NCBI GenBank assembly: GCA_051881815.1
Contig: JBJEQP010000038.1
Span: forward strand, 820-64,819
Origin: Oscillospiraceae bacterium
GTDB lineage: Bacteria; Bacillota; Clostridia; Oscillospirales; Ruminococcaceae
DNA: 64,000 bases
Reading direction: 5' to 3'
The position numbers were made by a program, and so were the translations under genes. Position 1 is the first letter of the stretch, and each line of letters opens with the position of its first letter. The notes under the pieces were generated by a model. The model saw only the letters and a list, made by a program, of their open reading frames with translations. It was not told the origin of the DNA and did not search any database. Shown one piece after another: positions 1,144-58,686 of the stretch.

Positions 1144-2571
1144 ATGGCAAATTACAAAAAGATCACTGCAGCTGCGCTGGCTGTACTTATGGCTTCGGGT
1201 CTTGCAGCCTGCGGAAGCGGTTCGGATATCCCCGAGGAAACTACCACACAGGCGACAGTTCCGATAAATACTGCAGAGCTTTCCGAAGAAGAAGCAGAGC
1301 AGGTCAAGGGCGTTGCCGATCTTCTTACGGGTGAGCTTGAAAACAAGACGATCAAGTGGTTCTCGTTCTATGATCCTTTCCATGCTACGACTTCGGGCAA
1401 CACAAAGGCTCTTTCACTTGAACTTTTTGAAGAAAAGTATGACGGTGTTATCGAATATATCCCGACAACATGGGATAAGCGTTTCGACGACCTTTCCACG
1501 AAGATCATCGGCGGCGAAGGTCTTGACTTTATCGCAGGCGGCGACCTTGACTCATTCCCGAACGGTGTAACGAACGGTATGTTTGAGCCTGTTGACAGCC
1601 TCATCGACTATGACAGCGACCTCTGGGCACCGGTAAAGGAGCTCAACGATATGTTCTTCCTCGGCGGAAAGCACTACCTCATCGCAACCGCTGCAACAAC
1701 GGGTCAGGTCGTTTACTACAACCGCCAGACTATCGAAGCATACGGTCTGGACGACCCTGCAGATCAGCTTGAAGAAGGCACTTGGACTTGGGATACCTTT
1801 AAGCAGGATCTTCTCGAATTCTGCGATCCCGATGCAGGCAACTTCGGCCTTGACGGATGGTTCAACGAAAAGCCGCTCATGATGACATCGGGCGCTCCCG
1901 CTCTCGAGATCAAGGACGGAAAGCTTTCCGATAATTTCTACAGCGCCGATCTTGAACGTGCAATGAATTTCCAGAGAGAACTTTTTGACAACGGACTTAT
2001 CCTTGACAAGAATCTCACAGGCTGGAAAACTCATATCGAATATATCGGCGAAGGCAAGGAGCTTTTCTACATAAGCGGTCTTTATGAGATCAACTCTGCT
2101 CCCGATATCTGGACAAAGACCTTCGGCGAACCCGAGGATGTAATGTTCGTTCCGCTTCCGAAGGATCCGAACGCTGACGCTTACTATCTCCCTGCAGGTC
2201 TTGAAGCTTATATGCTCTGCAAGGGCGCGCAGAACCCCGAAGGCGTTATCAAGTTCATGGAATGTATCCTCGCAGCAAACAGCGATGACAGAACAAAGCA
2301 GATCAACCGCGACAAGAGCATCAACGACTTCGGCTGGACCGAGGAAATGCTCGCAATGCAGGACAAGATCAGCGAAATGACAGCAGAGCATCCTGTTTAT
2401 GATCTCTGCAACGGCGTTCAGCCCGACCTCAACTCCCTCGTTGACAGCGGTCAGACAGGTGTAAGAGCTGCATTCCAGGGCGGCGACTGGGCAACGGTAA
2501 GAGAGGCTCTCGAAACAGCTGCAAAGATCTACATTGATGAATTCAATGCCGAAATTGAAGCTATGCAGTAA
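1144..2571 (+). CDS. extracellular solute-binding lipoprotein (ABC-type substrate-binding protein family), orphan
   Basis: Signal peptide with lipobox 'LAACGSG'. Size and composition fit family-1 substrate-binding proteins. Clear paralogue of 2827-4290. No permease or ATPase gene adjacent. Confidence 0.75.
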   Translation: MANYKKITAAALAVLMASGLAACGSGSDIPEETTTQATVPINTAELSEEEAEQVKGVADLLTGELENKTIKWFSFYDPFHATTSGNTKALSLELFEEKYDGVIEYIPTTWDKRFDDLSTKIIGGEGLDFIAGGDLDSFPNGVTNGMFEPVDSLIDYDSDLWAPVKELNDMFFLGGKHYLIATAATTGQVVYYNRQTIEAYGLDDPADQLEEGTWTWDTFKQDLLEFCDPDAGNFGLDGWFNEKPLMMTSGAPALEIKDGKLSDNFYSADLERAMNFQRELFDNGLILDKNLTGWKTHIEYIGEGKELFYISGLYEINSAPDIWTKTFGEPEDVMFVPLPKDPNADAYYLPAGLEAYMLCKGAQNPEGVIKFMECILAANSDDRTKQINRDKSINDFGWTEEMLAMQDKISEMTAEHPVYDLCNGVQPDLNSLVDSGQTGVRAAFQGGDWATVREALETAAKIYIDEFNAEIEAMQ

Positions 2572-2740: not shown

Positions 2741-2826
2741 ATATTTGCTAATATAAGGTGTACAAATTATCTCGTTGTACATTAGGTTTTATAGTCCCTT
2801 TCAAGGGAAATATTTGGAGGTTACAA

Positions 2827-4290
2827 ATGAAAAATACCAAGAAGATACTTGCAGGTATTATGGCTCTTTCAATGACTGCAGCTCTCACTGCCTGCGGCGA
2901 CAATGGAACAGAAGGCGGCAATACAGCAGAGGAAACAACAACCGTCACCACTACCACTGCCAAGACTGTTGCTATCAACGATGAAGGCCTTAAAGATGGC
3001 GAACAGGAAAGTCTTGATGCAGTTATGGAACAGCTTCAGGACGTTGAGATGGAAAACAAGACAGTCAAGTGGCTCGCTCACTATGACCTTAACCCCAGCA
3101 CTACCGGCGCAAGCAAGTCCGTTGGCCTTGAAATGTTTGAACAGAAGTACGGCGGAAAGCTTGAATGGATACCTACAACATGGAATTCTCGTTACGATGA
3201 CCTTTCCACACAGGTTCTCGGCGGCGGCGGCGTAGATATCTTCCCCGGCGACGATACAGCTAACTTCCCGAAGGGTATCATCAACGGAATGTTCCAGCCT
3301 GTTGACGATTATATCGACATCAACTCTGCTGTATGGCAGAATGTTTCAGCCGGAATGGATCTGTTCAAGTTCGGCGGAAAGCACTTTGAACTCGTTACAT
3401 CCATTACACCGGAAGCAATCGTAATTTATGATAAGTCCACTATCGAAGCACAGGGCTTTGACGATCCGTGGGAGCTTTATGAAAAGGGAGATTGGAACTG
3501 GGATACCTTCAAGTCCATGCTCTTTGAATTCGTTGATCCCGATTCCTCACAGTACGGTCTTGACGGCTACTGGAATGAAAAGGCTCTTCTTATGTCCGCA
3601 GGCGTTCCTATGGTTGGTCTTTCCGCTGACGGCGGCGTACAGAGCAATGTTAATGATCCTACAGTTGAAAAGGCAATGAACTTCCAGTATGAGCTCAATC
3701 AGAACGGCTGTAAGTTCCCGAAGGAACAGTTCAGCTGGAATGAGCAGCCGCAGATGCTCGGCGAGGGCGCAGAGCTGTTCTACATAGTTGGACCTTACTG
3801 CGTACAGGCCGCTCCCGAAACATGGTCTGTCGGCGTTGAGCCTGAAAACCTCGGTGTTGTTCCCGTTCCTTCTCCTGCAGGCTCCGATCCGTACCAGGGC
3901 GCAAAGATCAACGGTTTTGCTCTCTGTAAGGGTGCTGCTAATCCGCAGGGCGCTGCATTGTTCGCTGAATGTAATATCCTTGGTGCTGCTGACGAAAGAG
4001 CTATCGCAATTTCCGACAGAAAGGCTTCTGACGACTATAAGTGGAGCCAGGAGATCATCGACAAGATGAAGGAGATCGAAGAACTTGCAAGAAAGTATCC
4101 TGTTGTTGAATATGCTACAGGCTGCTCGTCCGATATCGCTTCCATCACTACAGACGGCGGCGATCAGATGGGTATGAGAGCTGCATTTGACGGCACAGAC
4201 TGGGCAACAATGAGGGAAACTATCGCTGATACAGTTAATATGCTCGTTGAGGAAGTTGACCAGAACCTCAAGACTGCTATCAATTCCTGA
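2827..4290 (+). CDS. extracellular solute-binding lipoprotein, paralogue of 1144-2571
   Basis: Start moved to 'MKNTKKILAG' behind GGAGG. Lipobox 'LTACGDN'. Shared blocks with the upstream gene include 'ENKT(I/V)KW', 'IPTTW', 'DDLST', 'FPxG(V/I)xNGMFxPVD'. Confidence 0.75.
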   Translation: MKNTKKILAGIMALSMTAALTACGDNGTEGGNTAEETTTVTTTTAKTVAINDEGLKDGEQESLDAVMEQLQDVEMENKTVKWLAHYDLNPSTTGASKSVGLEMFEQKYGGKLEWIPTTWNSRYDDLSTQVLGGGGVDIFPGDDTANFPKGIINGMFQPVDDYIDINSAVWQNVSAGMDLFKFGGKHFELVTSITPEAIVIYDKSTIEAQGFDDPWELYEKGDWNWDTFKSMLFEFVDPDSSQYGLDGYWNEKALLMSAGVPMVGLSADGGVQSNVNDPTVEKAMNFQYELNQNGCKFPKEQFSWNEQPQMLGEGAELFYIVGPYCVQAAPETWSVGVEPENLGVVPVPSPAGSDPYQGAKINGFALCKGAANPQGAALFAECNILGAADERAIAISDRKASDDYKWSQEIIDKMKEIEELARKYPVVEYATGCSSDIASITTDGGDQMGMRAAFDGTDWATMRETIADTVNMLVEEVDQNLKTAINS

Positions 4291-4345: not shown

Positions 4346-4350
4346 TATTA

Positions 4351-4509
4351 TACTAATCCCCATTTAACCTGTAGATAAATTAGGCAGCTATAATTGCGCC
4401 ACTCGTCGTCAAGCTCCCTTGACAGGCGGCAAGCCTGCCTGCGGTCGCTTACCTTGATTGGTGCAATTCTATCTGCCGACTTTATCTACAGAACAAATGG
4501 GGATTAGTA
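4351..4509 (+). repeat. structured dispersed repeat, copy 1 (TACTAAT...ATTAGTA hairpin element)
   Basis: 159 nt. Ends TACTAATCCCCATTT / AAATGGGGATTAGTA. Nested arms CTGTAGATAAA/TTTATCTACAG, GGCAG/CTGCC and AATTGCGCC/GGTGCAATT. Core GTCAAGCTCCCTTGAC hairpin. Related copies at 14783, 15755, 21890 and 58492. Confidence 0.85.
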
Positions 4510-4629
4510 TTAATTTATTACAAAATGGATAAAAATTTCATTTACCACTTCCATTTGCGGCTGAAATTTGGTATAATATAATGTGCATATATCTGAATAA
4601 TTTTTCTCCCGAAAGGAATGGTAATATAT

Positions 4630-7249: not shown

Positions 7250-7390
7250 GGTTGTTTGACAACGGCTATCGTGTTCTAAAGACAGCAGGTGGTTTTTACC
7301 GTAAATCCTGCCGAGGAAAGATCGCTGAAGTATAAGATACTTTCGCCCTTTTCAGTCTTTGACCGAAAAGGTTTTTCTTTTTTCGGATCC
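7250..7390 (+). promoter_or_regulatory. ribosomal protein L10 leader (autoregulatory attenuator)
   Basis: Structured 5' UTR between the promoter and rplJ, ending in the hairpin cccttttcag...ccgaaaagg plus a U-run. Position and architecture fit the Firmicutes L10 leader. Not verified with a covariance model. Confidence 0.55.
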
Positions 7391-9077: not shown

Positions 9078-9356
9078 TCATTCTTTGCTTTTGTTGATAA
9101 TATTATCGGGAAAAACCGAAGCCGTAAGCAGATCGGAAGGCGAAACGTCAAGAGCGTCGGCAATATCAAACAGAGTTTCAAGAGAAAAGCTGTTTGCGGC
9201 ATTCGGTGCTTCAATAACGCTTAAAAGGGAACGGCTGATATTAGCATTTTCCGCAAGAGCCTCCTGCGACATTCCTCGAAGCTTTCGCAGGGAAGCTATT
9301 GCAATTCCAAGCTGTATAAAACGGTCACGGTTTTTGAAAGCGACCTCTTTTCGCAT
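9078..9356 (-). CDS. XRE-family HTH regulator (tandem paralogue 1)
   Basis: 'IASLRKLRGMSQEALAENANISRSLLSVIE' HTH. The C-terminal 'SPSDLLTASVFPDNIINKSKE' is nearly identical to the neighbour's. Confidence 0.75.
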   Translation of the reverse strand: MRKEVAFKNRDRFIQLGIAIASLRKLRGMSQEALAENANISRSLLSVIEAPNAANSFSLETLFDIADALDVSPSDLLTASVFPDNIINKSKE

Positions 9357-9409
9357 ATTACACACCCTTTCGACATCTTTTTTAGATGGCTCGAATCTGT
9401 GGGGGACTT

Positions 9410-9688
9410 TTATTCCTTATTTTTATTGATAATATTATCGGGAAAAACCGAAGCCGTAAGCAGATCGGAAGGCGAAATTTCAAGAGCGTCGGCAATGTTA
9501 TAGAATACTTCCATAGAAAAGCAATGAGCAGTGTTCGGTGCTTCAATAACGCTCAAAAGGGAACGGCTTATGCCGGCTTTTTCGGCAAGCTTTTCCTGCG
9601 ATAAGCCTCTGATCCTTCTCAATGTTGAAATTGCGACGCCCAACTGTATGAAGCGGTCGTGATTTTTAAATGATACTTCTTTACTCAT
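9410..9688 (-). CDS. XRE-family HTH regulator (tandem paralogue 2)
   Basis: Start at 'MSKEVSFKN' behind GGAGAAGG. Same architecture and near-identical 3' end as 9078-9356. Confidence 0.75.
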   Translation of the reverse strand: MSKEVSFKNHDRFIQLGVAISTLRRIRGLSQEKLAEKAGISRSLLSVIEAPNTAHCFSMEVFYNIADALEISPSDLLTASVFPDNIINKNKE

Positions 9689-9967
9689 ATTTCCTTCTCC
9701 GTTTAATAAAGGGAAACTCAAAATATATTCTGTATATAATTATAGCCAAAGATAAATAATTATTCAGTATCAAACAGATAGCTATTGATTATTTTAGCAA
9801 GCAACTATATAATATAATTGAGCAATTGTATAGAAAAAAGTGTGTGTTATTAAAATGCCTTAACACAAATACACGATAAAGAGGTGAAACATATTGATAT
9901 AATTGCCAAAAGCGTGTATAATATAGATATACCCCAATACAGAGTATTAATAAGAGGAGGAAATTAT

Positions 9968-14782: not shown

Positions 14783-14962
14783 TTCTAATTCTTAATCAAC
14801 CTATAGACAAATCCTCGGCTATAATGCGCCCACTCTGCGTCAAACTCTTATGCAATGACGGCAGCCAAGCCTGTCTGTGGTCGCTCTCCAAGTTAAACAA
14901 GTTTACCTAATTGGAATTATTCTATCAGTCGGCTTTGTCTATAGAATGCTTAAAGATTAGTA
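14783..14962 (+). repeat. structured dispersed repeat, copy 2
   Basis: 180 nt. CTATAGACAAA / TTTGTCTATAG arms, conserved GGCTATAATGCGCCCACTCTGCGTCAA core, extra hairpin AGTTAAACAAGTTTACCT. The 5' half resembles copy 3 and the 3' half resembles copy 4. Confidence 0.8.
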
Positions 14963-15482: not shown

Positions 15483-15754
15483 ATTTTTTGTTTTCGTATT
15501 AAAGCCCCCTCTTTTTTAGGAAAAACGCATTGTTTAGCAATTCTTCAAACACGGTTATTATGTTTGAACCCATTATACACCCAATATTTGGACTATGCAA
15601 GCAAATACTTACAAAATCGTGGTTATTTACAGTTTTATAGGATTTTTTTATTGACCTTGACGATTTTTGCCGCAGCAGATGTTGTTTTTATCATTCAATT
15701 GGAATAGGAGCAGAATACACTCTCTATTTTTTTCGCTGCTCATGTTACGTTTAA

Positions 15755-15879
15755 TACTAATAACCATTTAACCTATGGATAAAAGGCGGTGGCTATAATA
15801 CGCCCACTCTGCGTCAAACTTCCTTGATTGGTCGTATTCTATCCACCGTCTTTATTCATAGAACAAATGGTTATTAGAA
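15755..15879 (+). repeat. structured dispersed repeat, copy 3 (short form)
   Basis: 125 nt. TACTAATAACCATTT / AAATGGTTATTAGAA ends; GGTGG/CCACC and AATACGCC/GGTCGTATT arms. A G-U pair in CTATGGATAAA/TTTATTCATAG is allowed only in a plus-strand RNA. Confidence 0.8.
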
Positions 15880-15941
15880 TAAAAACACATTACTCAATAT
15901 TATAACCGTACAGCATTTTTGTAAAATGTAGAAGCATGGTA

Positions 15942-21682: not shown

Positions 21683-21889
21683 ATTCCTCCATGATCAAAA
21701 AATGCTTTTTATACTAATAATCGGGGATCAGTATAAGATATTTATATCGGTTCGGGAAAATATCCCTATTTGATAAACAAATTTCAATGCAGGGGCAGGG
21801 TCTACCTGCCCGTTTTACAAATGATATGTTTGGGTGGGACGGGAAACCCGTCATTTACAAGTTGTATTTGTATTATAAAGAAATTTTTA

Positions 21890-21988
21890 TACTAATCCCG
21901 ATTATAAAGTGTACAAAAAATCAAGCAAAATCTCGCATATATGGATTTTGCGCAGATTTTTTGTCTACACTTTAATGAGGGATTAGTA
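21890..21988 (+). repeat. structured dispersed repeat, copy 5 (minimal form)
   Basis: 99 nt. TACTAATCCCGATTATAAAGTGTAC ... GTCTACACTTTAATGAGGGATTAGTA. Abuts the stop codon of the Gx-transporter gene and lies upstream of rnfC. Confidence 0.75.
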
Positions 21989-22504
21989 TTAAAGCCGTGA
22001 AATGCGGTTTTTCAGCTGCGGAACGAGCCTTCCCGAAACCGCACCGGTGAAAAAGCCCGAAGCTGTTGCAGTAACAAGCAGCAGCGGAGCATAATATAAG
22101 GTATAAGCGCTGCCCGTGAAAAAACAGGCTGCGGTAAGCTGACCGAATATATGAAGCACCGCTCCCGAAACGCTCACTCCGATGTAGGAAGCATTCGTTT
22201 TTTTCAGCAGGAGCACCGTTGCCGCAAACGCAGGAAGCCCTCCGCAGAGCGACATAACGCCTGCTGTAAAGCCTCTTGTCAGCAGCACGAACGCCGATTT
22301 CAGCACCGTAATTATAAGTGCTGTCGGGGCGTTTATACATTCCGCCGCACAAAGCACAACGATGTTCGCAAGTCCTATCCTCACTCCTGCAGGCAGGAAT
22401 GCCGAAAGCAGGCTTTCTATCGTTGTAAGTGCGACCGCAAGCGCAAGCAGTATCCCCGTTACCGAAGCATAGCTTGCCGACGATCTGAATGGATTAAGCT
22501 TCAT
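21989..22504 (-). CDS. Gx transporter family membrane protein (heptaprenyl diphosphate synthase component I-like)
   Basis: Five-TM protein with 'IESLLSAFLPAGVRIGLANIVVL' typical of this family. Confidence 0.7.
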   Translation of the reverse strand: MKLNPFRSSASYASVTGILLALAVALTTIESLLSAFLPAGVRIGLANIVVLCAAECINAPTALIITVLKSAFVLLTRGFTAGVMSLCGGLPAFAATVLLLKKTNASYIGVSVSGAVLHIFGQLTAACFFTGSAYTLYYAPLLLVTATASGFFTGAVSGRLVPQLKNRISRL

Positions 22505-35404: not shown

Positions 35405-37834
35405 ATGGATCTTTCAATGAAATGGCTCTCCGATTATGTTGATATCGGAGATATGAGTATAAAGGAATTCTGCTCGGGTCTTACAATTAGCGGCTCTAAG
35501 GTTGAGCGTTATGAGACCGAGGGTGAAGAGATAAGCAAGGTTGTTGTCGGAAAGCTTCTTTCCGTCGTTCCGCACGAAAACTCCGACCACCTTGTCGTAT
35601 GTCAGGTCGATGTAGGCACAGCAGGAAACGGCGAGCCTATACAGATCGTTACGGGTGCGCCTAACGTTAAGGCAGGCGATATCGTTCCCGTTGCAATGGA
35701 CGGCTCAACACTTCCCGGCGGCGTTAAGATCAAGAAGGGCAAGCTCCGCGGCGTTGAATCGAACGGTATGCTCTGCTCACTCGGCGAGCTCGGACTTACA
35801 ACTCACGATTTCCCCTACGCTATTGCAGACGGCATCTTCCTTTTACAGCAGGAAGAGGGCTGCCCCGAGCTTAAACTCGGTATGGATATAAAGGAAGCTA
35901 TCGGTCTTGGCGATACAGCTGTTGAATTCGAGATCACTTCCAATCGTCCCGACTGCATGAGCGTTATCGGTCTTGCCCGTGAAACTGCGGCTACGTTCGA
36001 TCTTCCCTTAAAGCTCCACGAACCCGTAATAAAGGGCATCGGCGGCAGCGCAAAGGACAGCTTAAAGAGCGTTATCATCTCCGACAAGGAAAAATGCTCG
36101 ACATATATCGCTGCTGTTGTAAAGAACGTAAAGATCGGAATGTCCCCACGCTGGATGCGTGAGCGTCTTCGTGCAAGCGGCGTTCGTCCTATCAATAATT
36201 TTGTCGATATCACAAACTATGTAATGCTTGAATACGGTCAGCCTATGCACGCTTTCGATATCCGTTACCTTGAAGGCTCGTCGATCGACGTTCGCCGTGC
36301 AAAGAGCGGTGAAAAGATCACAACTCTTGACGGTGTTGAACGTGAGCTTACAGAAAATATGCTCGTTATCGCAGACGCCCGGAAGCCTGTTGCAGTTGCA
36401 GGCGTAATGGGCGGCGAATACAGTGGGATCATGGACGATACAGTCGATGTTGTGTTTGAAGCAGCCTGCTTTGACGGTGCATCCGTGCGTACAACGGCAA
36501 AGGCTCTCGGCATGAGAACAGACGCTTCCTCACGCTTTGAAAAGGGTCTTGACCCGAGAATGGCTGAACCTGCACTCAAACGTGCTCTTGAGCTCGTTGA
36601 AATGCTCGGCTGCGGCGAAGTTGTAACGGAGTATATCAAGGTTTCAAACGGCGTTGACACACAGAAGTCCGCTCCGTTCAGCGCAGAATGGATAAACAAG
36701 TTCCTCGGCACCGATATCCCCGAAAAAAAGATGATAAGCTATCTCAACAAGCTTGATTTCACCGTAAAGGACGGCGTTGCTTACGCTCCCGCATACAGAG
36801 TTGATATCGAGTGCAAGTCGGATATCGCAGAGGAGGTTGCCCGTCTTTACGGCTACAACAACATCCCGAAGACCGTTATCAGAGGTGTTGCACAGGCGCA
36901 GCTCACACCGAAGCAGAAGTTTGAGCGCAAGCTTGCCAACACAATGACAGCTCTCGGCTGCTACGAGATCTCGACTTACTCTTTCGTAAGCCCGAAGTAC
37001 TTCGACAAGATCAATCTTCCTGCCGACAGCACACTCCGCAAGACGGTCACTATCACAAATCCTCTCGGCGAAGATACCTCTGTAATGAGAACAACTATCA
37101 TTCCTTCAATGTGTGAAGTTCTCGCAAGAAACTACAACAACCGAAACGCCGAAGCTTACCTCTTTGAGATCGGCAACGAGTATATCCCCGTTTCGGGCAA
37201 GGAACTCCCCGAAGAGCCTGCAAGACTTGCAGTTGGTATGTACGGAAAGGACGCAGATTTCTTCCTCCTCAAGGGCAAGCTCGAAGCTGTTCTTGATGAA
37301 ATGGGTCTGGGCGAATGTGACTTTGAGGCTTGCACAGATACTGCAGTTTACCCCGAAGCAAGCGCTTTCCACCCCGGCAGATGTGCAGTTGTCAGCAAGA
37401 ACGGCAAGGTTTTCGGTATCCTCGGCGAGCTTGCTCCCGTTGTTCTTGAAAACTACGGTATCGGCGTAAAGGCTTATGCCGCAAAGCTTGAAGTCCCCGA
37501 AATGATGGAAATTGCAGCAGAGGTCGGCGACAAGGTTTATAAGCCGCTGCCGAAGTTCCCTGCAACTACCCGTGATATCGCAGTTGTATGCGAAGATAAG
37601 CTTGCAGTCGCAGTGCTTGAAAAGGCAATCAAGAGCGCAGTAGGAAACATCCTTGAAACGGTAGAGCTTTTCGACGTATACAAGGGCAAGCAGGTAGGCG
37701 AAGGCAAAAAGTCCGTAGCATTTGCCATTTCGATGCGTTCGCACGAAGGCACTCTCACCGATGAGCAGGCAGACGCAGCAATGAAGCGTGTACTCAAAGA
37801 GCTTGCAAAGCTTGGAGCAGAGCTCAGAGCGTAA
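35405..37834 (+). CDS. pheT: phenylalanine--tRNA ligase beta subunit
   Basis: 'MKWLSDYV', tRNA-binding domain 'VVGKLLSVVPHENSDHLVVCQVDVG', B3/4, B5 and C-terminal FDX-ACB domains. Confidence 0.95.
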   Translation: MDLSMKWLSDYVDIGDMSIKEFCSGLTISGSKVERYETEGEEISKVVVGKLLSVVPHENSDHLVVCQVDVGTAGNGEPIQIVTGAPNVKAGDIVPVAMDGSTLPGGVKIKKGKLRGVESNGMLCSLGELGLTTHDFPYAIADGIFLLQQEEGCPELKLGMDIKEAIGLGDTAVEFEITSNRPDCMSVIGLARETAATFDLPLKLHEPVIKGIGGSAKDSLKSVIISDKEKCSTYIAAVVKNVKIGMSPRWMRERLRASGVRPINNFVDITNYVMLEYGQPMHAFDIRYLEGSSIDVRRAKSGEKITTLDGVERELTENMLVIADARKPVAVAGVMGGEYSGIMDDTVDVVFEAACFDGASVRTTAKALGMRTDASSRFEKGLDPRMAEPALKRALELVEMLGCGEVVTEYIKVSNGVDTQKSAPFSAEWINKFLGTDIPEKKMISYLNKLDFTVKDGVAYAPAYRVDIECKSDIAEEVARLYGYNNIPKTVIRGVAQAQLTPKQKFERKLANTMTALGCYEISTYSFVSPKYFDKINLPADSTLRKTVTITNPLGEDTSVMRTTIIPSMCEVLARNYNNRNAEAYLFEIGNEYIPVSGKELPEEPARLAVGMYGKDADFFLLKGKLEAVLDEMGLGECDFEACTDTAVYPEASAFHPGRCAVVSKNGKVFGILGELAPVVLENYGIGVKAYAAKLEVPEMMEIAAEVGDKVYKPLPKFPATTRDIAVVCEDKLAVAVLEKAIKSAVGNILETVELFDVYKGKQVGEGKKSVAFAISMRSHEGTLTDEQADAAMKRVLKELAKLGAELRA

Positions 37835-37837
37835 AAT

Positions 37838-37857
37838 TAATGCGTAATGCGTAATTA
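37838..37857 (+). repeat. TAATGCGTAATGCGTAATTA 20-mer (copy 2)
   Basis: Exact 20-mer, 3 nt after the pheT stop. Confidence 0.9.
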
Positions 37858-37880
37858 TTTTGAAAACCATAGATATAATA

Positions 37881-37948: not shown

Positions 37949-37962
37949 ATTACGCATTAATT
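37949..37962 (-). repeat. single TAATGCGTAAT unit overlapping the GNAT stop codon
   Basis: ATTACGCATTAATT is the exact inverted complement of AATTAATGCGTAAT at 37835-37848. Confidence 0.85.
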
Positions 37963-38724
37963 GATGTTTTGTGCAAACATTTCCGTCCATACGGGTCTGT
38001 ATCCGGATGATTTTGCTACGTTCTGCGAAGCGATGTTTCCGCTCCATGTTCCGTAGTAGGGGATAGCTCCGTGCGCCATTATTTCGTATGTAAGCGCTTT
38101 TACGCACTCCGAGCCTATCCCAAGTCCACGGAATTCCTTCTTTACGTCAATGCCGATCTGCCAGAAACGTTCGCTGTCGCTGCTTGCGCCTGCCATTGCG
38201 ATGATATCGTTCCCGTTAAGTGCGCAGACTGCGACTTTATCGGTTCTTTTGCCCTGATCCTTATATAAAAGTGCGTTGGTGAACTCCTTATACTGATAAA
38301 GCTCCGATTTTATCTCGTTTTCTTCAAAAACTTTTAGGTTCACTCCGCTTTTGGAATGGTATTTATAGGGAATATCGGGGAGAAAGTAGATGTTTACATC
38401 GCCGATCGACTTGTTGTATTCGGCAAGCTTGCAGTTTATAAGGTACTGAACCTTTCCGCTGAACAATTCCGCTCCCGAATACTTGGAACAAAGCTGCTCA
38501 AAGAAAGGGATTAGCCTTTCATCTGCGGAGATCACTGCGTTCCTGCCCATTGTTGCCATACGGAAGAACGGAGTTTCGTCAAAGAGCGTTCTGCTGCCGA
38601 TTTTCGGCTTGTTCGGGGCAACGATATTCTCTTCTCCGGAAAAATCATTTTTATAGCAGCCGTAATCGGCGGCAAGCTGTTCGGCGGCTGCTTCTGTAAA
38701 TTCACTTTGGTACAAATATATCAT
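37957..38724 (-). CDS. GNAT-family N-acetyltransferase
   Basis: Acetyl-CoA motif 'FRGLGIGSECVKAL' near the C-terminus. Start uncertain: the ORF is open to 38757 but that stretch overlaps the typA terminator. Confidence 0.7.
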   Translation of the reverse strand: MIYLYQSEFTEAAAEQLAADYGCYKNDFSGEENIVAPNKPKIGSRTLFDETPFFRMATMGRNAVISADERLIPFFEQLCSKYSGAELFSGKVQYLINCKLAEYNKSIGDVNIYFLPDIPYKYHSKSGVNLKVFEENEIKSELYQYKEFTNALLYKDQGKRTDKVAVCALNGNDIIAMAGASSDSERFWQIGIDVKKEFRGLGIGSECVKALTYEIMAHGAIPYYGTWSGNIASQNVAKSSGYRPVWTEMFAQNIN

Positions 38725-38741
38725 CTCCCTGTATGCTTTTT

Positions 38742-38780
38742 GATAAAAACACCGCACACACGGTCGGTTGTGTGTGCGGT
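38742..38780 (-). terminator. typA terminator
   Basis: accgcacaca / tgtgtgcggt stem with a T-run on the minus strand. Confidence 0.75.
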
Positions 38781-38890
38781 AAAAACGTTGATCTGGTACA
38801 AGAAACCCATTCCTGCAATATGTTTAGGATTTGTAACGGGCGGATATAGAATCCGCCCCTACAGATCAAAAATTAATTCACGAAACACAA

Positions 38891-38910
38891 TAATTACGCA
38901 TTACGCATTA
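38891..38910 (-). repeat. TAATGCGTAATGCGTAATTA 20-mer (copy 3)
   Basis: Exact 20-mer on the minus strand, 2 nt after the typA stop. Confidence 0.9.
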
Positions 38911-38912
38911 AT

Positions 38913-40736
38913 TTACTGTCCGAGCTTCGCTCTTGTCTTTGCACGGAGAGAGTTGTCAAGTATTCTCTTTCTGATGCGGATGCTCTTCGGAGTAATTTCA
39001 AGAAGCTCGTCATCGGCGATGAATTCAAGGCTGTCTTCAAGAGAGAGGATCCTCGGCGGAATAAGGCGAAGTGCGTCGTCCGAACCGCTTGCACGGGTGT
39101 TTGTGAGGTGCTTCTTCTTGCAGACATTGATTACAAGGTCTTCTGCCTTCGGCGACTGACCAACGATCATACCCTCGTAAACGGGAACGCCTGCACCGAT
39201 GAAGAGTGTACCTCTTTCCTGTGCGTTGTAAAGACCGTAGGTGATGGATTCGCCTGTTTCAAAGCAAACGAGAGAGCCTGTGTTTCTTCTCGGGATATCG
39301 CCCTTATACGGCTGGTAGCTGTCGAAAACGCTGTTCATAACGCCTTCGCCCTTTGTGTCGGTGAGGAATTCGGACTTGTAGCCGAAAAGTCCTCTTGAAG
39401 GGATAAGGAACTCTATTCTCATTCTGCTGCCCGACGGGTGCATGGTCTGAAGCTCTGCCTTTCTGCTGCCGAGCTTTTCCATAACTGCGCCTACGCCGTC
39501 CTCGGGAACGTCGATAACAAGGCGTTCGATAGGTTCGCACATAACGCCGTCGATCTCCTTCATGAGAACCTTCGGTGTGGAAACGGAGAGCTCGTAGCCC
39601 TCACGGCGCATATTTTCGATAAGGATGGAAAGGTGCATTTCACCTCTGCCCGCAACACGGAAAGCATCTGTGTTCTCTGTTTCGGAAACACGGAGGGAAA
39701 CGTCACGGAGAGTTTCCTTGAAAAGACGCTCACGGAGCTGTCTGGAAGTAACGAATTTACCCTCGCGGCCTGCAAAGGGGCTGTCATTTACGGAGAAGGT
39801 CATCTCAACGGTAGGTTCGGAGATCTTTACGAACGGGAGCGGTTCAAATTTGGAGCTGTCGCAGAGCGTATCGCCGATAGTGATATCCTCGATACCCGAG
39901 ATCCACACGATATCGCCGACGGAAGCTTCCTGAACGGGAACCTTGTTGAGTCCTTCGATCTGGTAGATAGTGACGATCTTGCTGTTGTAGGGCTTGCGGT
40001 TCTCGTGGTAATCGCCGACTGTAACAGCTTCGTTTACTCTGATCGTACCTCTTTCAATTCTGCCGATTCCTGTTCTGCCGACATAATCATTATAGTCGAT
40101 AGAGGAAATGAGCATCTGCATCGGTCCTTCGGGGTCGCCCTCGGGAGCAGGGATATAGTTTACGATAGTTTCAAAGAGCGGAACAAGGTCGGTTCCTGCT
40201 TCATACTGGCTGAGCGAAGCTGTGCCTGCACGGCCGGAGCAGAAGAGGACGGGGCTTTCGAGCTGCTCGTCGCTTGCGTCAAGGTCGAGGAGGAGCTCGA
40301 GTATCTCGTCGCCGATCTCGTCAAGACGTGCGTCGGGACGGTCGATCTTATTAACGACAACGATGATCTTGTGACCCATTTCAAGTGCCTTCTGGAGAAC
40401 GAAACGAGTCTGCGGCATACAGCCTTCCGCTGCATCGACAAGGAGAACAACGCCGTCAACCATTTTTAGAACACGCTCAACCTCTCCGCCAAAGTCTGCG
40501 TGACCCGGAGTGTCGATGATGTTGATCTTGATGCCGTTGTAGTTTACTGCGGTGTTTTTTGCAAGGATCGTGATTCCGCGCTCACGCTCGATATCGTTTG
40601 AGTCCATTACACGGTCTGCAACTTCCTGATTTTCACGGAAAGCGCCGCCCTGCTTTAACATTTCGTCAACAAGGGTGGTTTTGCCGTGGTCAACGTGAGC
40701 AATGATCGCAACGTTTCTTAAATCTTCTCTTACCAT
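38913..40736 (-). CDS. typA: translational GTPase TypA/BipA
   Basis: '[17 protein letters not shown]', '[11 protein letters not shown]', 'NKID'. Full-length at 607 aa. Confidence 0.95.
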
Positions 40737-40912: not shown

Positions 40913-40996
40913 TGGTGGAGGAGGGTGGATTCGAACCACCGAAGCCGAAGCAACAGATTTACAGTCTGCCCCCTTTGGCCACTCGGGAACTCCTCC
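40913..40996 (-). tRNA. tRNA-Tyr (GUA)
   Basis: Reverse complement GGAGGAG...CAGACTGTAAATCTG...GGTTCGAATCC...CTCCTCCACCA. Long variable arm, encoded CCA. Confidence 0.9.
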
Positions 40997-41034
40997 AAAA
41001 AAATATCTAAACAGTTTTAAAGCTGTTTAGAAAT

Positions 41035-41110
41035 TGGAGCTGGTGGACGGACTCGAACCCCCGACCTGCTGATTACAAATCAGCTGCTCTACCAACTGAG
41101 CTACACCAGC
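41035..41110 (-). tRNA. tRNA-Thr (UGU)
   Basis: Reverse complement GCTGGTGTAGCTCAGTTGGTAGAGC...CTGATTTGTAATCAG...GGTTCGAGTCC...CCAGCTCCA. Confidence 0.9.
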
Positions 41111-41240
41111 TTGAATCTGATCTTTTTTGTTATCGTTTCAAGCGACTATTACATTCTAACACAAGATGCTTTATTTGTCAATAGGAATTTGCATTATTTA
41201 CAAATCGTTCACATTCTCTGCTTTTCTGACGAAAAATGAA

Positions 41241-41317
41241 TGGTCGGGGCGACAGGACTCGAACCTGCGGCATCTTGGTCCCAAACCAAGCACTCTACCA
41301 AACTGAGTTACGCCCCG
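41241..41317 (-). tRNA. tRNA-Pro (UGG)
   Basis: Reverse complement CGGGGCGTAACTCAGTTTGGTAGAGT...CTTGGTTTGGGACCAAG...GGTTCGAGTCC...GCCCCGACCA. Confidence 0.9.
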
Positions 41318-58389: not shown

Positions 58390-58491
58390 GCTGTTGAAGG
58401 AGAATGACCATGAATGTATGACAGATACAGAATATGCGTTAGATCATTCGCTGAACTTAAGGAGTTTCGCTCTACTGCCAAAGATCATTCA

Positions 58492-58665
58492 TACTAATAT
58501 CAAATCAACCGTAAGACTAAATCCTCGGATATAATAATCCAATTCTGTGTCAAGCTCCCTTGACAGGCGGCAGCCTGCCTGCGGTCGCCCTCCAAGGTAA
58601 ACAAGTTTACCTACTTGGATTATTCTATCTGTCGGCTTTGTCTATAGAACGATTTGATATTAGTA
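58492..58665 (+). repeat. structured dispersed repeat, copy 4
   Basis: 174 nt. TACTAATATCAAATC / GATTTGATATTAGTA ends, AATAATCCAA/TTGGATTATT arm, GTCAAGCTCCCTTGACAGGCGGCAGCCTGCCTGCGGTCGC core identical to copy 1 apart from one deleted base, extra AGGTAAACAAGTTTACCT hairpin. Confidence 0.85.
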
Positions 58666-58686
58666 TCAGACCTGCGGCAAGCTTTG

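What the first reader, a model, noticed from the sequence alone, without database searches (positions are those of the whole stretch)
4351..4509. Dispersed family of 100-180-nt hairpin elements with compensatory arm changes (unclassified structured RNA or MITE)
Seen: five copies sit in intergenic DNA, at 4351-4509, 14783-14962, 15755-15879, 21890-21988 and 58492-58665. The four long copies (1-4) share the same core orientation; the minimal copy 5 lacks that core. They share TACTAAT...ATTAGTA termini, the CTATAGAyAAA/TTTrTCTATAG arm and a conserved CTATAAT box. Copies 1 and 4 also share the core GTCAAGCTCCCTTGAC(AGGCGGCA(A)GCCTGCCTGCGGTCGC). Between copies the outer arms differ but remain complementary: CCCCATTT/AAATGGGG, AACCATTT/AAATGGTT, ATCAAATC/GATTTGAT. 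The inner arm does the same: AATTGCGCC/GGTGCAATT, AATACGCC/GGTCGTATT, AATAATCCAA/TTGGATTATT. Copy 3 contains a G-U pair tolerated only in a plus-strand RNA. Inference: selection acts on structure rather than on a transposase-binding sequence. That points to a structured RNA or an ssDNA hairpin element. The flanking TA dinucleotides could alternatively be TA target duplications of an IS630/Tc1-type MITE. I cannot match it to a named Rfam family from memory.
Basis: partly seen in the sequence, partly recalled or inferred. Interest (0 to 1): 0.65.

Follow-up and report, generated by a model that had tools for sequence, protein, structure and literature searches.

The report
Hairpin MITEs of an IS630-family transposon
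The five hairpin repeats are miniature non-coding transposons (MITEs) moved by an IS630-family insertion sequence of gut Oscillospiraceae; this is an ordinary kind of bacterial repeat, unusual only for its 3-base target duplication and its well-kept hairpin.

Summary
Five elements are at the stated coordinates, and their arms differ between copies while staying complementary. In 53 relatives, 97.6% of cells are paired against 83.4% in shuffles (0/500), and 28 of 48 pairs changed on both sides.

They are MITEs, not an RNA gene. The evidence:
- 131 hits in window plus 104 genome loci from Huintestinicola, Ruminococcus and other Oscillospiraceae MAGs, many at contig ends.
- Exact ends TACTAAT...ATTAGTA, flanked by a direct 3-bp duplication TNA in 63 of 71 copies.
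- An empty site and a nested insertion.
- A 1128-bp autonomous element with the same ends and the same duplication. It encodes an IS630-family transposase and its protein cluster is annotated in Huintestinicola.

The variable outer-arm block also differs between related IS lineages, so that part of the "compensation" tracks transposase lineages. The inner and apical stems lie beyond IS homology and still covary, so a fold-back structure is kept for an unresolved reason. G·U pairs (19 cells) are no commoner than A·C (27), and there is no Rfam match. Copy 21890-21988 belongs to a second, about 100-nt family with the same ends.

Verdict: a new member of a known kind; modest interest.

The parts
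4351..4509 (+). MITE copy, 159 nt, main family (arm block CCCCATTT). Flanked by the TTA target duplication at 4348-4350 and 4510-4512. It sits just after the terminator-like hairpin of the upstream gene.
14783..14962 (+). MITE copy, 180 nt, main family, long form with an extra hairpin AAGTTAAACAAGTTTACCT. It is decayed: 5' end TTCTAAT, imperfect arms, and the duplication is no longer recognisable (ttt/aaa).
15755..15879 (+). MITE copy, 125 nt, main family (arm block AACCATTT). It lacks the 35-nt apex through a deletion between CCTTGA repeats. TAA duplication at 15752-15754 and 15880-15882. The 3' end is mutated to ATTAGAA.
58492..58665 (+). MITE copy, 174 nt, main family (arm block ATCAAATC), long form with the extra hairpin AAGGTAAACAAGTTTACCT. 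TCA duplication at 58489-58491 and 58666-58668. It lies between convergent genes.
21890..21988 (+). Member of a second MITE family of about 100 nt. It has the same TACTAAT...TRTAGACAAA ends but a different interior. TTA duplication at 21887-21889 and 21989-21991.
21712..21733 (+). 22-nt remnant TACTAATAATCGGGGATCAGTA: the two element ends with almost nothing between them. It is flanked by TTA and TAA. Probably a deletion derivative.
   Evidence: similar mini-elements at L081 about 1723-1753 and L091 4737-4818

Best explanation
[quoted passage not shown] They are non-coding passengers of a clade of IS630-family insertion sequences that lives in gut Oscillospiraceae (Huintestinicola and relatives).

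Shown:
- The elements have exact ends TACTAAT...ATTAGTA and insert at T-N-A (mostly TAA/TTA), which they duplicate.
- They are dispersed in many copies, almost always between genes. They insert into other repeats and into each other.
- A 1128-bp IS carries the same 30-nt ends and makes the same duplication. It encodes orfA (helix-turn-helix domains) and orfB (DDE_3), separated by an A7 slippery run of the kind used for -1 frameshifting.

Inferred:
- The IS transposase binds the bipartite terminal repeat (TACTAAT, an 8-nt lineage-specific block, then TRTAGACAAA) on both MITE ends and moves the MITE by cut-and-paste with a 3-nt staggered target cut.
- The different outer-arm blocks mark MITE subfamilies that are matched to different IS lineages.
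- The rest of the element is kept as one long fold-back. Only copies whose arms still pair seem to found new subfamilies. The most likely reason is that a cruciform or single-strand snap-back brings the two ends of a 100-200-bp element together for synapsis, or serves as the substrate itself. The alternatives are arm-to-arm mismatch correction in the DNA hairpin, or a host-level effect of the RNA hairpin. Which of these applies is not resolved.
For: Copies:
- nhmmer finds 131 non-overlapping hits in the window plus 104 genome loci. 76 are full length, most 150-159 nt.
- Many hits are cut by contig ends, as expected of dispersed repeats.

Target duplication:
- 63 of 71 independent copies carry a direct 3-bp repeat: TAA 47, TTA 12, TGA 2, TCA 2.

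Mobility:
- Empty site: the copy at L007 831-989 splits another repeat. Three other copies of that repeat read TTTTCTGACGACGG uninterrupted, so exactly TGA was duplicated.
- Nested insertion at L003 1937-2177.

Genomic context:
- Only 4 of 106 hits overlap a called ORF.

Parent element:
- It appears in 8 human-gut contigs with different flanks.
- It is 1128 bp, with terminal repeats matching at 24 of 30 positions. Its duplications are TGA/TGA, TAA/TAA and TTA/TTA.
- orfB matches Pfam DDE_3 at E = 1e-22 and NCBIfam NF033545 (IS630 family) at 131.7 bits against a cutoff of 100.
- An A7 slippery site lies between orfA and orfB.
- The exact protein occurs on 214 contigs. A member of its 90% cluster is annotated 'IS630 family transposase [Huintestinicola sp.]'.
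- One IS end is identical over about 30 nt to the 5' arm of the TCCAAATC MITE subfamily.

Lineage matching:
- IS relatives at 79-87% identity carry other 8-nt blocks: CACCAATT, ACCTGATT, CCCCAAGT and TCATCATC.
- In two of these relatives, and in the reference IS, both ends carry near-identical blocks (6-7 of 8). In a third they match poorly (about 3 of 8). For TCATCATC only one end was seen.
- One of these blocks (CACCAATT) is found in arms of the short MITE family.

Hairpin:
- Covariation runs along the whole element, including stems beyond IS homology.
Against: - Mobilisation in trans was not demonstrated; it is inferred from shared ends and a shared duplication.
- The MITE interior has no homology to the IS interior, so it is not a simple deletion derivative.
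- No IS copy lies in the window or in the 104 genome loci sampled.
- Canonical IS630 members duplicate TA. A 40%-identical relative in Acidithiobacillus looks TA-flanked. The 3-bp duplication is therefore a departure from the family norm.
- 6 of 14 IS copies have flanks that differ in the middle base. I attribute this to chimeric assembly of a 1.1-kb repeat, because several contigs share one flank but not the other. This is an inference.
- The conserved asymmetries are not explained by a pure pairing constraint. These are AACC opposite GAAC, and TATAAT opposite TAGAAT.
- Two orientation biases also remain unexplained: TAA over TTA at 47:12, and the plus strand on the G-rich strand at 63:31.
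Confidence: 0.9

Rival explanations
1. A structured non-coding RNA, either a small RNA gene or a cis-regulatory hairpin, whose fold is under selection. The MITE-like spread is secondary, or the element has been exapted so that the RNA hairpin acts on neighbouring transcripts as a processing site, stabiliser or barrier.
For: - Very strong covariation in every helix, including the apical stems that have no counterpart in the IS.
- Long variants add modular extra hairpins at fixed points, as structured RNAs do.
- Sequence polarity is conserved: forward HMM hits score about 130 bits, reverse hits about 35.
- A CTATAAT box is conserved against its pairing partner.
- Orientation is biased 63:31 toward the G-rich strand.
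- Copies lie next to gene 3' ends more often than 5' ends.
Against: - No Rfam family matches, even at E <= 10.
- G·U cells (19) are not commoner than A·C cells (27), and together they are under 2% of cells. This is Watson-Crick-only pairing, as in DNA inverted repeats.
- In tandem-gene contexts the element is co-directional 21 times and opposite 15 times (p = 0.4).
- The consensus scan finds no promoter at the CTATAAT box and no terminator in or after the element.
- Target duplications, empty sites, nested copies and a transposase-bearing parent explain the spread without any RNA.
Confidence: 0.1
2. A MITE of the IS5 / PIF-Harbinger kind, suggested by the 3-bp TNA (TWA) duplication that is typical of those transposases.
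For: The duplication is TNA, with TAA or TTA in 59 of 63 cases. From general knowledge, this is the PIF/Harbinger signature and that of some IS5 groups.
Against: - The only full-length element found with these ends encodes HTH plus DDE_3 domains and scores as IS630 family, not DDE_Tnp_1 or DDE_Tnp_4.
- It makes the same TNA duplication itself.
- No IS5-type element with TACTAAT ends was seen in any locus.
Confidence: 0.02
3. A REP/PATE-like single-strand hairpin element moved by an HUH (IS200/IS605 or RAYT) transposase.
For: The whole element is a hairpin, and its orientation correlates with GC skew. This is what is seen for elements that use lagging-strand single-stranded DNA.
Against: From general knowledge, such elements have no terminal inverted repeats that reach the exact ends and make no target duplication. 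Here both are present, and a DDE parent exists.
Confidence: 0.01

Closest known systems
RUP (repeat unit of pneumococcus), thought to be mobilised by IS630-Spn1 in Streptococcus pneumoniae (from my own knowledge, not checked in a paper here)
   Same: Both are roughly 100-nt, non-coding, hairpin-forming MITEs in a Bacillota genome. Both share terminal repeats with an IS630-family element, occur in many intergenic copies and exist as several subtypes.
   Different: RUP duplicates TA; these elements duplicate TNA. Here the elements are longer (modal 157-159 nt), have an asymmetric apex and optional extra hairpins, and come in many arm subfamilies. The host is gut Oscillospiraceae.
Correia elements (NEMIS/CREE) of Neisseria and ERIC elements of enterobacteria (from my own knowledge)
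   Same: These are abundant intergenic imperfect palindromes of 100-160 nt. Their transcripts fold into long hairpins, and compensatory arm changes have been noted in them. Insertions can create promoter-like junctions.
   Different: Correia elements duplicate TA and have no known parent transposase. Here the parent IS was found. The RNase III processing and promoter activity shown for Correia elements are untested here.
Stowaway-type MITEs of Tc1/mariner in eukaryotes, and the fold-back amplification idea for the fish 'Angel' MITEs (Izsvak et al. 1999; from my own knowledge)
   Same: Both are MITEs of the IS630-Tc1-mariner superfamily with a marked potential to form DNA secondary structure. 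The hairpin has been proposed to matter for amplification.
   Different: Those are eukaryotic and duplicate TA. Here there is direct family-wide covariation evidence that the fold is kept.
Fot (pogo superfamily) and Zator elements of the IS630-Tc1-mariner group
   Same: These members of the same superfamily depart from TA. Most Fot elements have TAA duplications (PMC7386202, read). From my own knowledge, Zator makes 3-bp duplications.
   Different: Those are eukaryotic elements. The element here is a bacterial IS630-family IS with two ORFs separated by an A7 slippery run that suggests a frameshift.

Membership tests
Bacterial MITE (non-autonomous DDE transposon) | Small (under about 300 bp) with no coding capacity | tested here: met
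   Lengths are 99-215 nt. Only 4 of 106 hits overlap a called ORF.
Bacterial MITE (non-autonomous DDE transposon) | Terminal inverted repeats that reach the exact ends | tested here: met
   TACTAAT...ATTAGTA in nearly all copies. The arms are complementary over 50 nt or more.
Bacterial MITE (non-autonomous DDE transposon) | Direct target-site duplication of fixed length | tested here: met
   3-bp TNA in 63 of 71 copies. Confirmed by an empty site and a nested insertion.
Bacterial MITE (non-autonomous DDE transposon) | Many dispersed copies, with sites that are filled in one place and empty in another | tested here: met
131 hits. Empty paralogous sites.
Bacterial MITE (non-autonomous DDE transposon) | A transposase-encoding element with matching ends and the same duplication | tested here: met
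   A 1128-bp IS in gut metagenomes and Huintestinicola.
Bacterial MITE (non-autonomous DDE transposon) | Mobilisation in trans by that transposase | not testable with these tools
   Needs a transposition assay.
IS630 family (the parent element) | Transposase with N-terminal HTH domains and a DDE_3 catalytic domain that passes the family model | tested here: met
   orfB: PF13358 at E = 1.2e-22 and NF033545 at 131.7 bits (cutoff 100). orfA: HTH_33/HTH_29/HTH_23, plus the NF033545 N-terminal half at 55 bits.
IS630 family (the parent element) | Length of 1.0-1.4 kb with terminal inverted repeats | tested here: met
   1128 bp, with terminal repeats matching at 24 of 30 positions.
IS630 family (the parent element) | Insertion at TA with a 2-bp TA duplication | tested here: not met
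   The duplication is 3-bp TNA for both the MITEs and the IS. A TA model predicts an 8-bp TNATATNA empty site, and that is not what is seen.
Structured RNA family (Rfam-type) | Match to a curated covariance model | tested here: not met
   Nothing at gathering thresholds in the window. Only chance-level hits at E <= 10 on copy 1.
Structured RNA family (Rfam-type) | Covariation supporting a conserved fold | tested here: met
   The same pattern is expected of DNA inverted repeats, so this feature does not discriminate.
Structured RNA family (Rfam-type) | Strand-specific signature: G·U tolerated, A·C not | tested here: not met
   19 G·U cells against 27 A·C cells out of 2542 (binomial p = 0.30).
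Structured RNA family (Rfam-type) | Consistent orientation with respect to transcription, and its own promoter or terminator | tested here: inconclusive
   Tandem-gene contexts give 21 same against 15 opposite. The GC-skew test gives 63:31. No promoter or terminator is called inside the element.
Structured RNA family (Rfam-type) | A discrete stable transcript | not testable with these tools
   No expression data are available.
IS5 / PIF-Harbinger-derived MITE | Parent transposase of the DDE_Tnp_1 or DDE_Tnp_4 type | tested here: not met
   The parent is DDE_3 / IS630.

The most novel reading that the evidence does not exclude
The full-length fold-back may itself be part of the transposition mechanism of a previously unrecognised bacterial IS630 clade that cuts targets with a 3-nt stagger at TWA. 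A cruciform or single-strand snap-back would present the two ends of a 100-200-bp element as a ready-made paired-end substrate. Only lineages that keep the hairpin would then amplify. This would explain the covariation beyond the transposase-binding repeats, the orientation bias relative to GC skew, and the coupling between element orientation and the middle base of the target.
Probability: 0.2. Interest if true: 0.6.

Novelty: new member of a known kind. Interest (0 to 1): 0.3.

Why it matters
- For annotation: these elements break metagenome assemblies of common gut Oscillospiraceae, since many contigs end inside them. They should be masked as MITEs rather than reported as RNA candidates.
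- For transposon biology: the family pairs a large, diverse IS630 clade (4763 related transposases at E <= 1e-20) with several cognate MITE families. It also shows a clean 3-bp TNA duplication in a family known for TA.
- As a test case: the natural series of arm subfamilies is a ready-made data set for asking whether MITE hairpins are needed for transposition. That is an old, untested idea.
- The elements also occur in viral contigs, and the IS interrupts a restriction-enzyme gene. They are therefore an active source of variation in these genomes.

Tried and rejected
- Rfam at gathering thresholds on the whole window, and at E <= 10 on copy 1: only tRNAs, an L10 leader and chance hits.
- IS5 / PIF-Harbinger parent, my first guess from the TNA duplication: dropped once the parent proved to be IS630 family.
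- Search for a full-length IS among the window and 104 genome loci, by paired-end regex and by all-against-all blastn: none found. The only long shared segment was the rpsB gene.
- blastn of copy 1 against PLSDB plasmids: no match.
- Exact look-up of two window proteins, to fetch allelic loci for empty sites: not on record. Empty sites came from paralogous repeats instead.
- Extending viral locus L119 past its stored end, and scanning viral contigs for right ends: no extension. The metagenome scan solved it.
- Literature searches for MITEs in Ruminococcaceae, for IS630 with TNA, and for Huintestinicola: nothing describing this family.
- Internal promoter at the CTATAAT box, or a terminator function: the consensus scans do not support either. 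One outward promoter-like site at the left junction of copy 1 is within chance expectation.
- A stop-codon-targeting idea: only 9 of 74 copies use the stop codon of a long upstream ORF as their duplicated TAA or TGA.

Full report
**1. The observation**

- blastn shows that 4351-4509, 14783-14962, 15755-15879 and 58492-58665 are one family. They share 63-78% identity over their full length and lie in the same orientation.
- 15755-15879 is the same element without a 35-nt apex. The deletion lies between two CCTTGA repeats and recurs in other subfamilies.
- 21890-21988 shares only the ends.
- Each copy folds into one long hairpin much better than shuffled sequence, with z from -3.8 to -11.3.
- Rfam has nothing for them, either at gathering thresholds or at E <= 10.

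**2. Relatives**

All came from Huintestinicola, 'uncultured Ruminococcus' and other Oscillospiraceae/Ruminococcaceae MAGs.
- An HMM built from the four window copies finds 131 non-overlapping hits in the window plus these loci. 76 are full length and most are 150-159 nt.
- Most partial hits are cut by contig ends. This is the usual mark of a dispersed repeat that breaks assemblies.
- Forward hits score about 130 bits and reverse hits about 35, so the element has a conserved polarity and is not a plain palindrome.

**3. They are mobile, and the ends are exact**

Lining up the flanks shows a direct 3-bp repeat immediately outside TACTAAT...ATTAGTA.
- It is present in 63 of 71 independent copies: TAA 47, TTA 12, TGA 2, TCA 2.
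- In the window the repeats are TTA (4351), TAA (15755), TCA (58492) and TTA (21890). Copy 14783 is decayed.
- The middle base is the same on both sides (tga...tga, tca...tca). This is therefore a duplication and not a palindromic target.

Two natural experiments fix the boundaries.
- The copy at L007 831-989 interrupts another 150-nt repeat. Three other copies of that repeat read TTTTCTGACGACGG without interruption, so exactly TGA was duplicated.
- At L003 1937-2177 one element sits inside the arm of another, with TAA duplicated.

Both cases exclude that.

The elements are almost always intergenic: 4 of 106 overlap a called ORF. They lie more often in convergent than in divergent gaps (21 against 5).

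**4. The parent element**

My first guess from the TNA duplication was an IS5 or Harbinger-type transposase. None was present in the loci.

The lead came from a scan of viral contigs with a generic end pattern. In one case (L119) the terminal repeat was followed by unrelated sequence. A 22-mer from that junction then found eight human-gut metagenome contigs, each with different flanks.

The complete element has these features:
- It is 1128 bp long and its terminal repeats match at 24 of 30 positions. It is flanked by TGA/TGA, TAA/TAA or TTA/TTA.
- orfA (165 aa) carries HTH_33/HTH_29/HTH_23 domains.
- orfB (166 aa) matches Pfam DDE_3 at E = 1e-22 and NCBIfam NF033545 (IS630 family transposase) at 131.7 bits against a cutoff of 100.
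- An A7 run (TCAAAAAAATTAAAG) lies where orfB's frame opens. This suggests a programmed -1 frameshift giving a transposase of about 340 aa.
- The exact orfB protein is on 214 contigs. A member of its 90% cluster is annotated 'IS630 family transposase [Huintestinicola sp.]'. This is the genus in which the MITEs abound.
- The IS end downstream of the transposase gene is identical over about 30 nt to the 5' arm of the TCCAAATC MITE subfamily. Beyond about 32 nt there is no homology, so the MITE is not a simple deletion derivative.

Some IS copies have flanks that differ in the middle base. Several contigs share one flank but not the other (L141/L146, L140/L142), so I read these as chimeric assemblies of a 1.1-kb repeat. 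This is an inference.

A 40%-identical IS630 relative on an Acidithiobacillus plasmid appears TA-flanked. The 3-bp duplication therefore looks like a property of this clade. Within the wider IS630-Tc1-mariner group, TAA duplications are reported for fungal Fot elements (PMC7386202).

**5. What the compensatory changes mean**

The covariation is real.
- On 53 distinct copies, 97.6% of cells are paired, against 83.4% in shuffles (0 of 500) and 30-39% with slid partners.
- 28 of 48 pairs changed on both sides, in 383 cells.

It has two parts.

(a) *The outer arms.* The 8-nt block at positions 8-15 (CCCCATTT, AACCATTT, ATCAAATC and others) lies inside the terminal repeat. That repeat is bipartite: TACTAAT, the block, then TRTAGACAAA.
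- IS relatives at 79-87% protein identity carry other blocks: CACCAATT, ACCTGATT, CCCCAAGT and TCATCATC.
- The block is near-identical at both ends in the reference IS and in two of the three relatives with both ends recovered (6-7 of 8). It matches poorly in the third (about 3 of 8).
- One of these blocks, CACCAATT, appears in arms of the short MITE family.
- This part of the 'compensation' therefore tracks transposase lineages.

(b) *The inner and apical stems.* Alignment columns 43-55/108-121, 62-69/95-102 and 74-78/84-91 lie beyond any IS homology, yet 15 of their 23 pairs changed on both sides. A fold-back is therefore kept.

The pairing is almost purely Watson-Crick.
- G·U cells (19) are not commoner than A·C cells (27).
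- Many switches are transversions, such as A-U to U-A.

This fits DNA-level complementarity better than an RNA read from one strand.

Several conserved asymmetries persist in most subfamilies: AACC opposite GAAC, TATAAT opposite TAGAAT, and the asymmetric apex. Wholesale arm-to-arm copying is therefore not the main process, although a few copies with a reversed left arm do exist (L070, L035, L098). Long variants add discrete extra hairpins at fixed points.

**6. Mechanism and rivals**

*Best supported:* cut-and-paste mobilisation in trans by the IS630-family transposase. It would recognise both MITE ends and cut the target with a 3-nt stagger at TNA.

*Why the hairpin is kept is inferred.* I favour a role in transposition of very short elements, in which a cruciform or snap-back brings the ends together. 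This is an old proposal for eukaryotic MITEs, recalled from my own knowledge. The alternatives are mismatch correction within the DNA hairpin, or an RNA-level effect on neighbouring genes.

*The RNA rival.* Several points count against it:
- No Rfam match and no G·U signature.
- The consensus scan calls no promoter at the CTATAAT box and no terminator.
- Orientation in tandem-gene contexts is 21:15.

Some points remain in its favour:
- The conserved polarity of the element.
- An orientation bias of 63:31 toward the G-rich strand, p = 0.001.

*Unexplained:* in element orientation the duplication reads TAA far more often than TTA, on both skew classes (17:1 and 30:10).

**7. Comparison and novelty**

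The closest known things are RUP/IS630-Spn1 in pneumococcus, Correia and ERIC elements, and Stowaway-type MITEs.

This is a new member of that kind, in a poorly studied gut lineage. It has three slightly unusual features: a 3-bp TNA duplication in an IS630-family clade, many arm subfamilies matched to IS lineages, and unusually clean covariation along the whole hairpin. I found no paper describing it.

It is not a new class of RNA. Interest is modest.

Noticed in passing
window 21890-21988; L072 252-351, L104 3447-3546, L034 7162-7260, L004 572-670, L026 1105-1203; viral contigs L106 539-638, L112 3414-3513, L117 109-208, L120 9613-9712: A second MITE family of about 100 nt has the same TACTAAT...TRTAGACAAA ends and the same TNA duplication, with its own covarying arms and inner hairpin. 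It gives 21 hits in the loci held, including several IMG/VR viral contigs, so these elements also sit in phage-like DNA.
   Followed up: partly
window 21712-21733: TACTAATAATCGGGGATCAGTA is two element ends with almost nothing between them. It lies 156 nt upstream of the copy at 21890. Similar mini-elements are at L081 about 1723-1753 (31 nt) and L091 4737-4818 (82 nt).
   Followed up: partly
L003 165-269 and 5499-5657; L007 2932-3096 and 730-1090: Huintestinicola MAGs carry another, unrelated palindromic repeat of about 150 nt (ATTGCTCCGCCAATTAAC...GTTAATTGGGGGAGCAAT). One copy of it is the target of a MITE insertion. It was not classified.
   Followed up: no
all full-length copies (window and L001-L104): Read in element orientation, the duplicated triplet is TAA 47 times and TTA 12 times (p = 5e-6), on both GC-skew classes. 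The element's plus strand lies on the locally G-rich strand 63 times against 31 (p = 0.001). No explanation tested accounts for this coupling of orientation to the middle target base.
   Followed up: partly
L034 5559-5766, L102 3046-3253, L039 5754-5968, L096 56-270, L046 1226-1401, L011 4894-5083: Long variants of the main family carry modular additions at fixed points. Examples are a 56-nt insertion with two hairpins in the apical loop, a tandem 17-nt repeat (GTCCACGCAGTGACCTT x3), and extra small hairpins.
   Followed up: no
L141 995-3082 (also L146): The 1128-bp IS interrupts a HaeIII-type restriction endonuclease gene next to its methylase, with a TAA duplication.
   Followed up: no
window 37834-37862 and 38886-38914: A 29-nt inverted repeat, 97% complementary (AAATTAATGCGTAATGCGTAATTATTTTG), brackets a 1-kb segment that holds only a GNAT acetyltransferase gene (37957-38757, minus strand).
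   Followed up: partly
window 9080-9359 and 9412-9691: A 280-nt segment is repeated in tandem at 76% identity, downstream of the L10/L7-L12 region. It matches no Rfam family at gathering threshold.
   Followed up: no
window 1144-2571 and 2758-4290: Two adjacent ORFs (475 and 510 aa) share several in-register DNA segments at a constant 1710-1713-nt offset, so they look like tandem paralogues. The one tested, 2758-4290, has no Pfam match.
   Followed up: no
window 7258-7386; 40913-41317: An L10 leader (RF00557, 60.7 bits) lies upstream of the rplJ-like ORF. A tRNA-Tyr/Thr/Pro cluster lies on the minus strand. GC skew is mostly positive along the window (cumulative skew rises until about 60 kb), which suggests one replication arm.
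   Followed up: no
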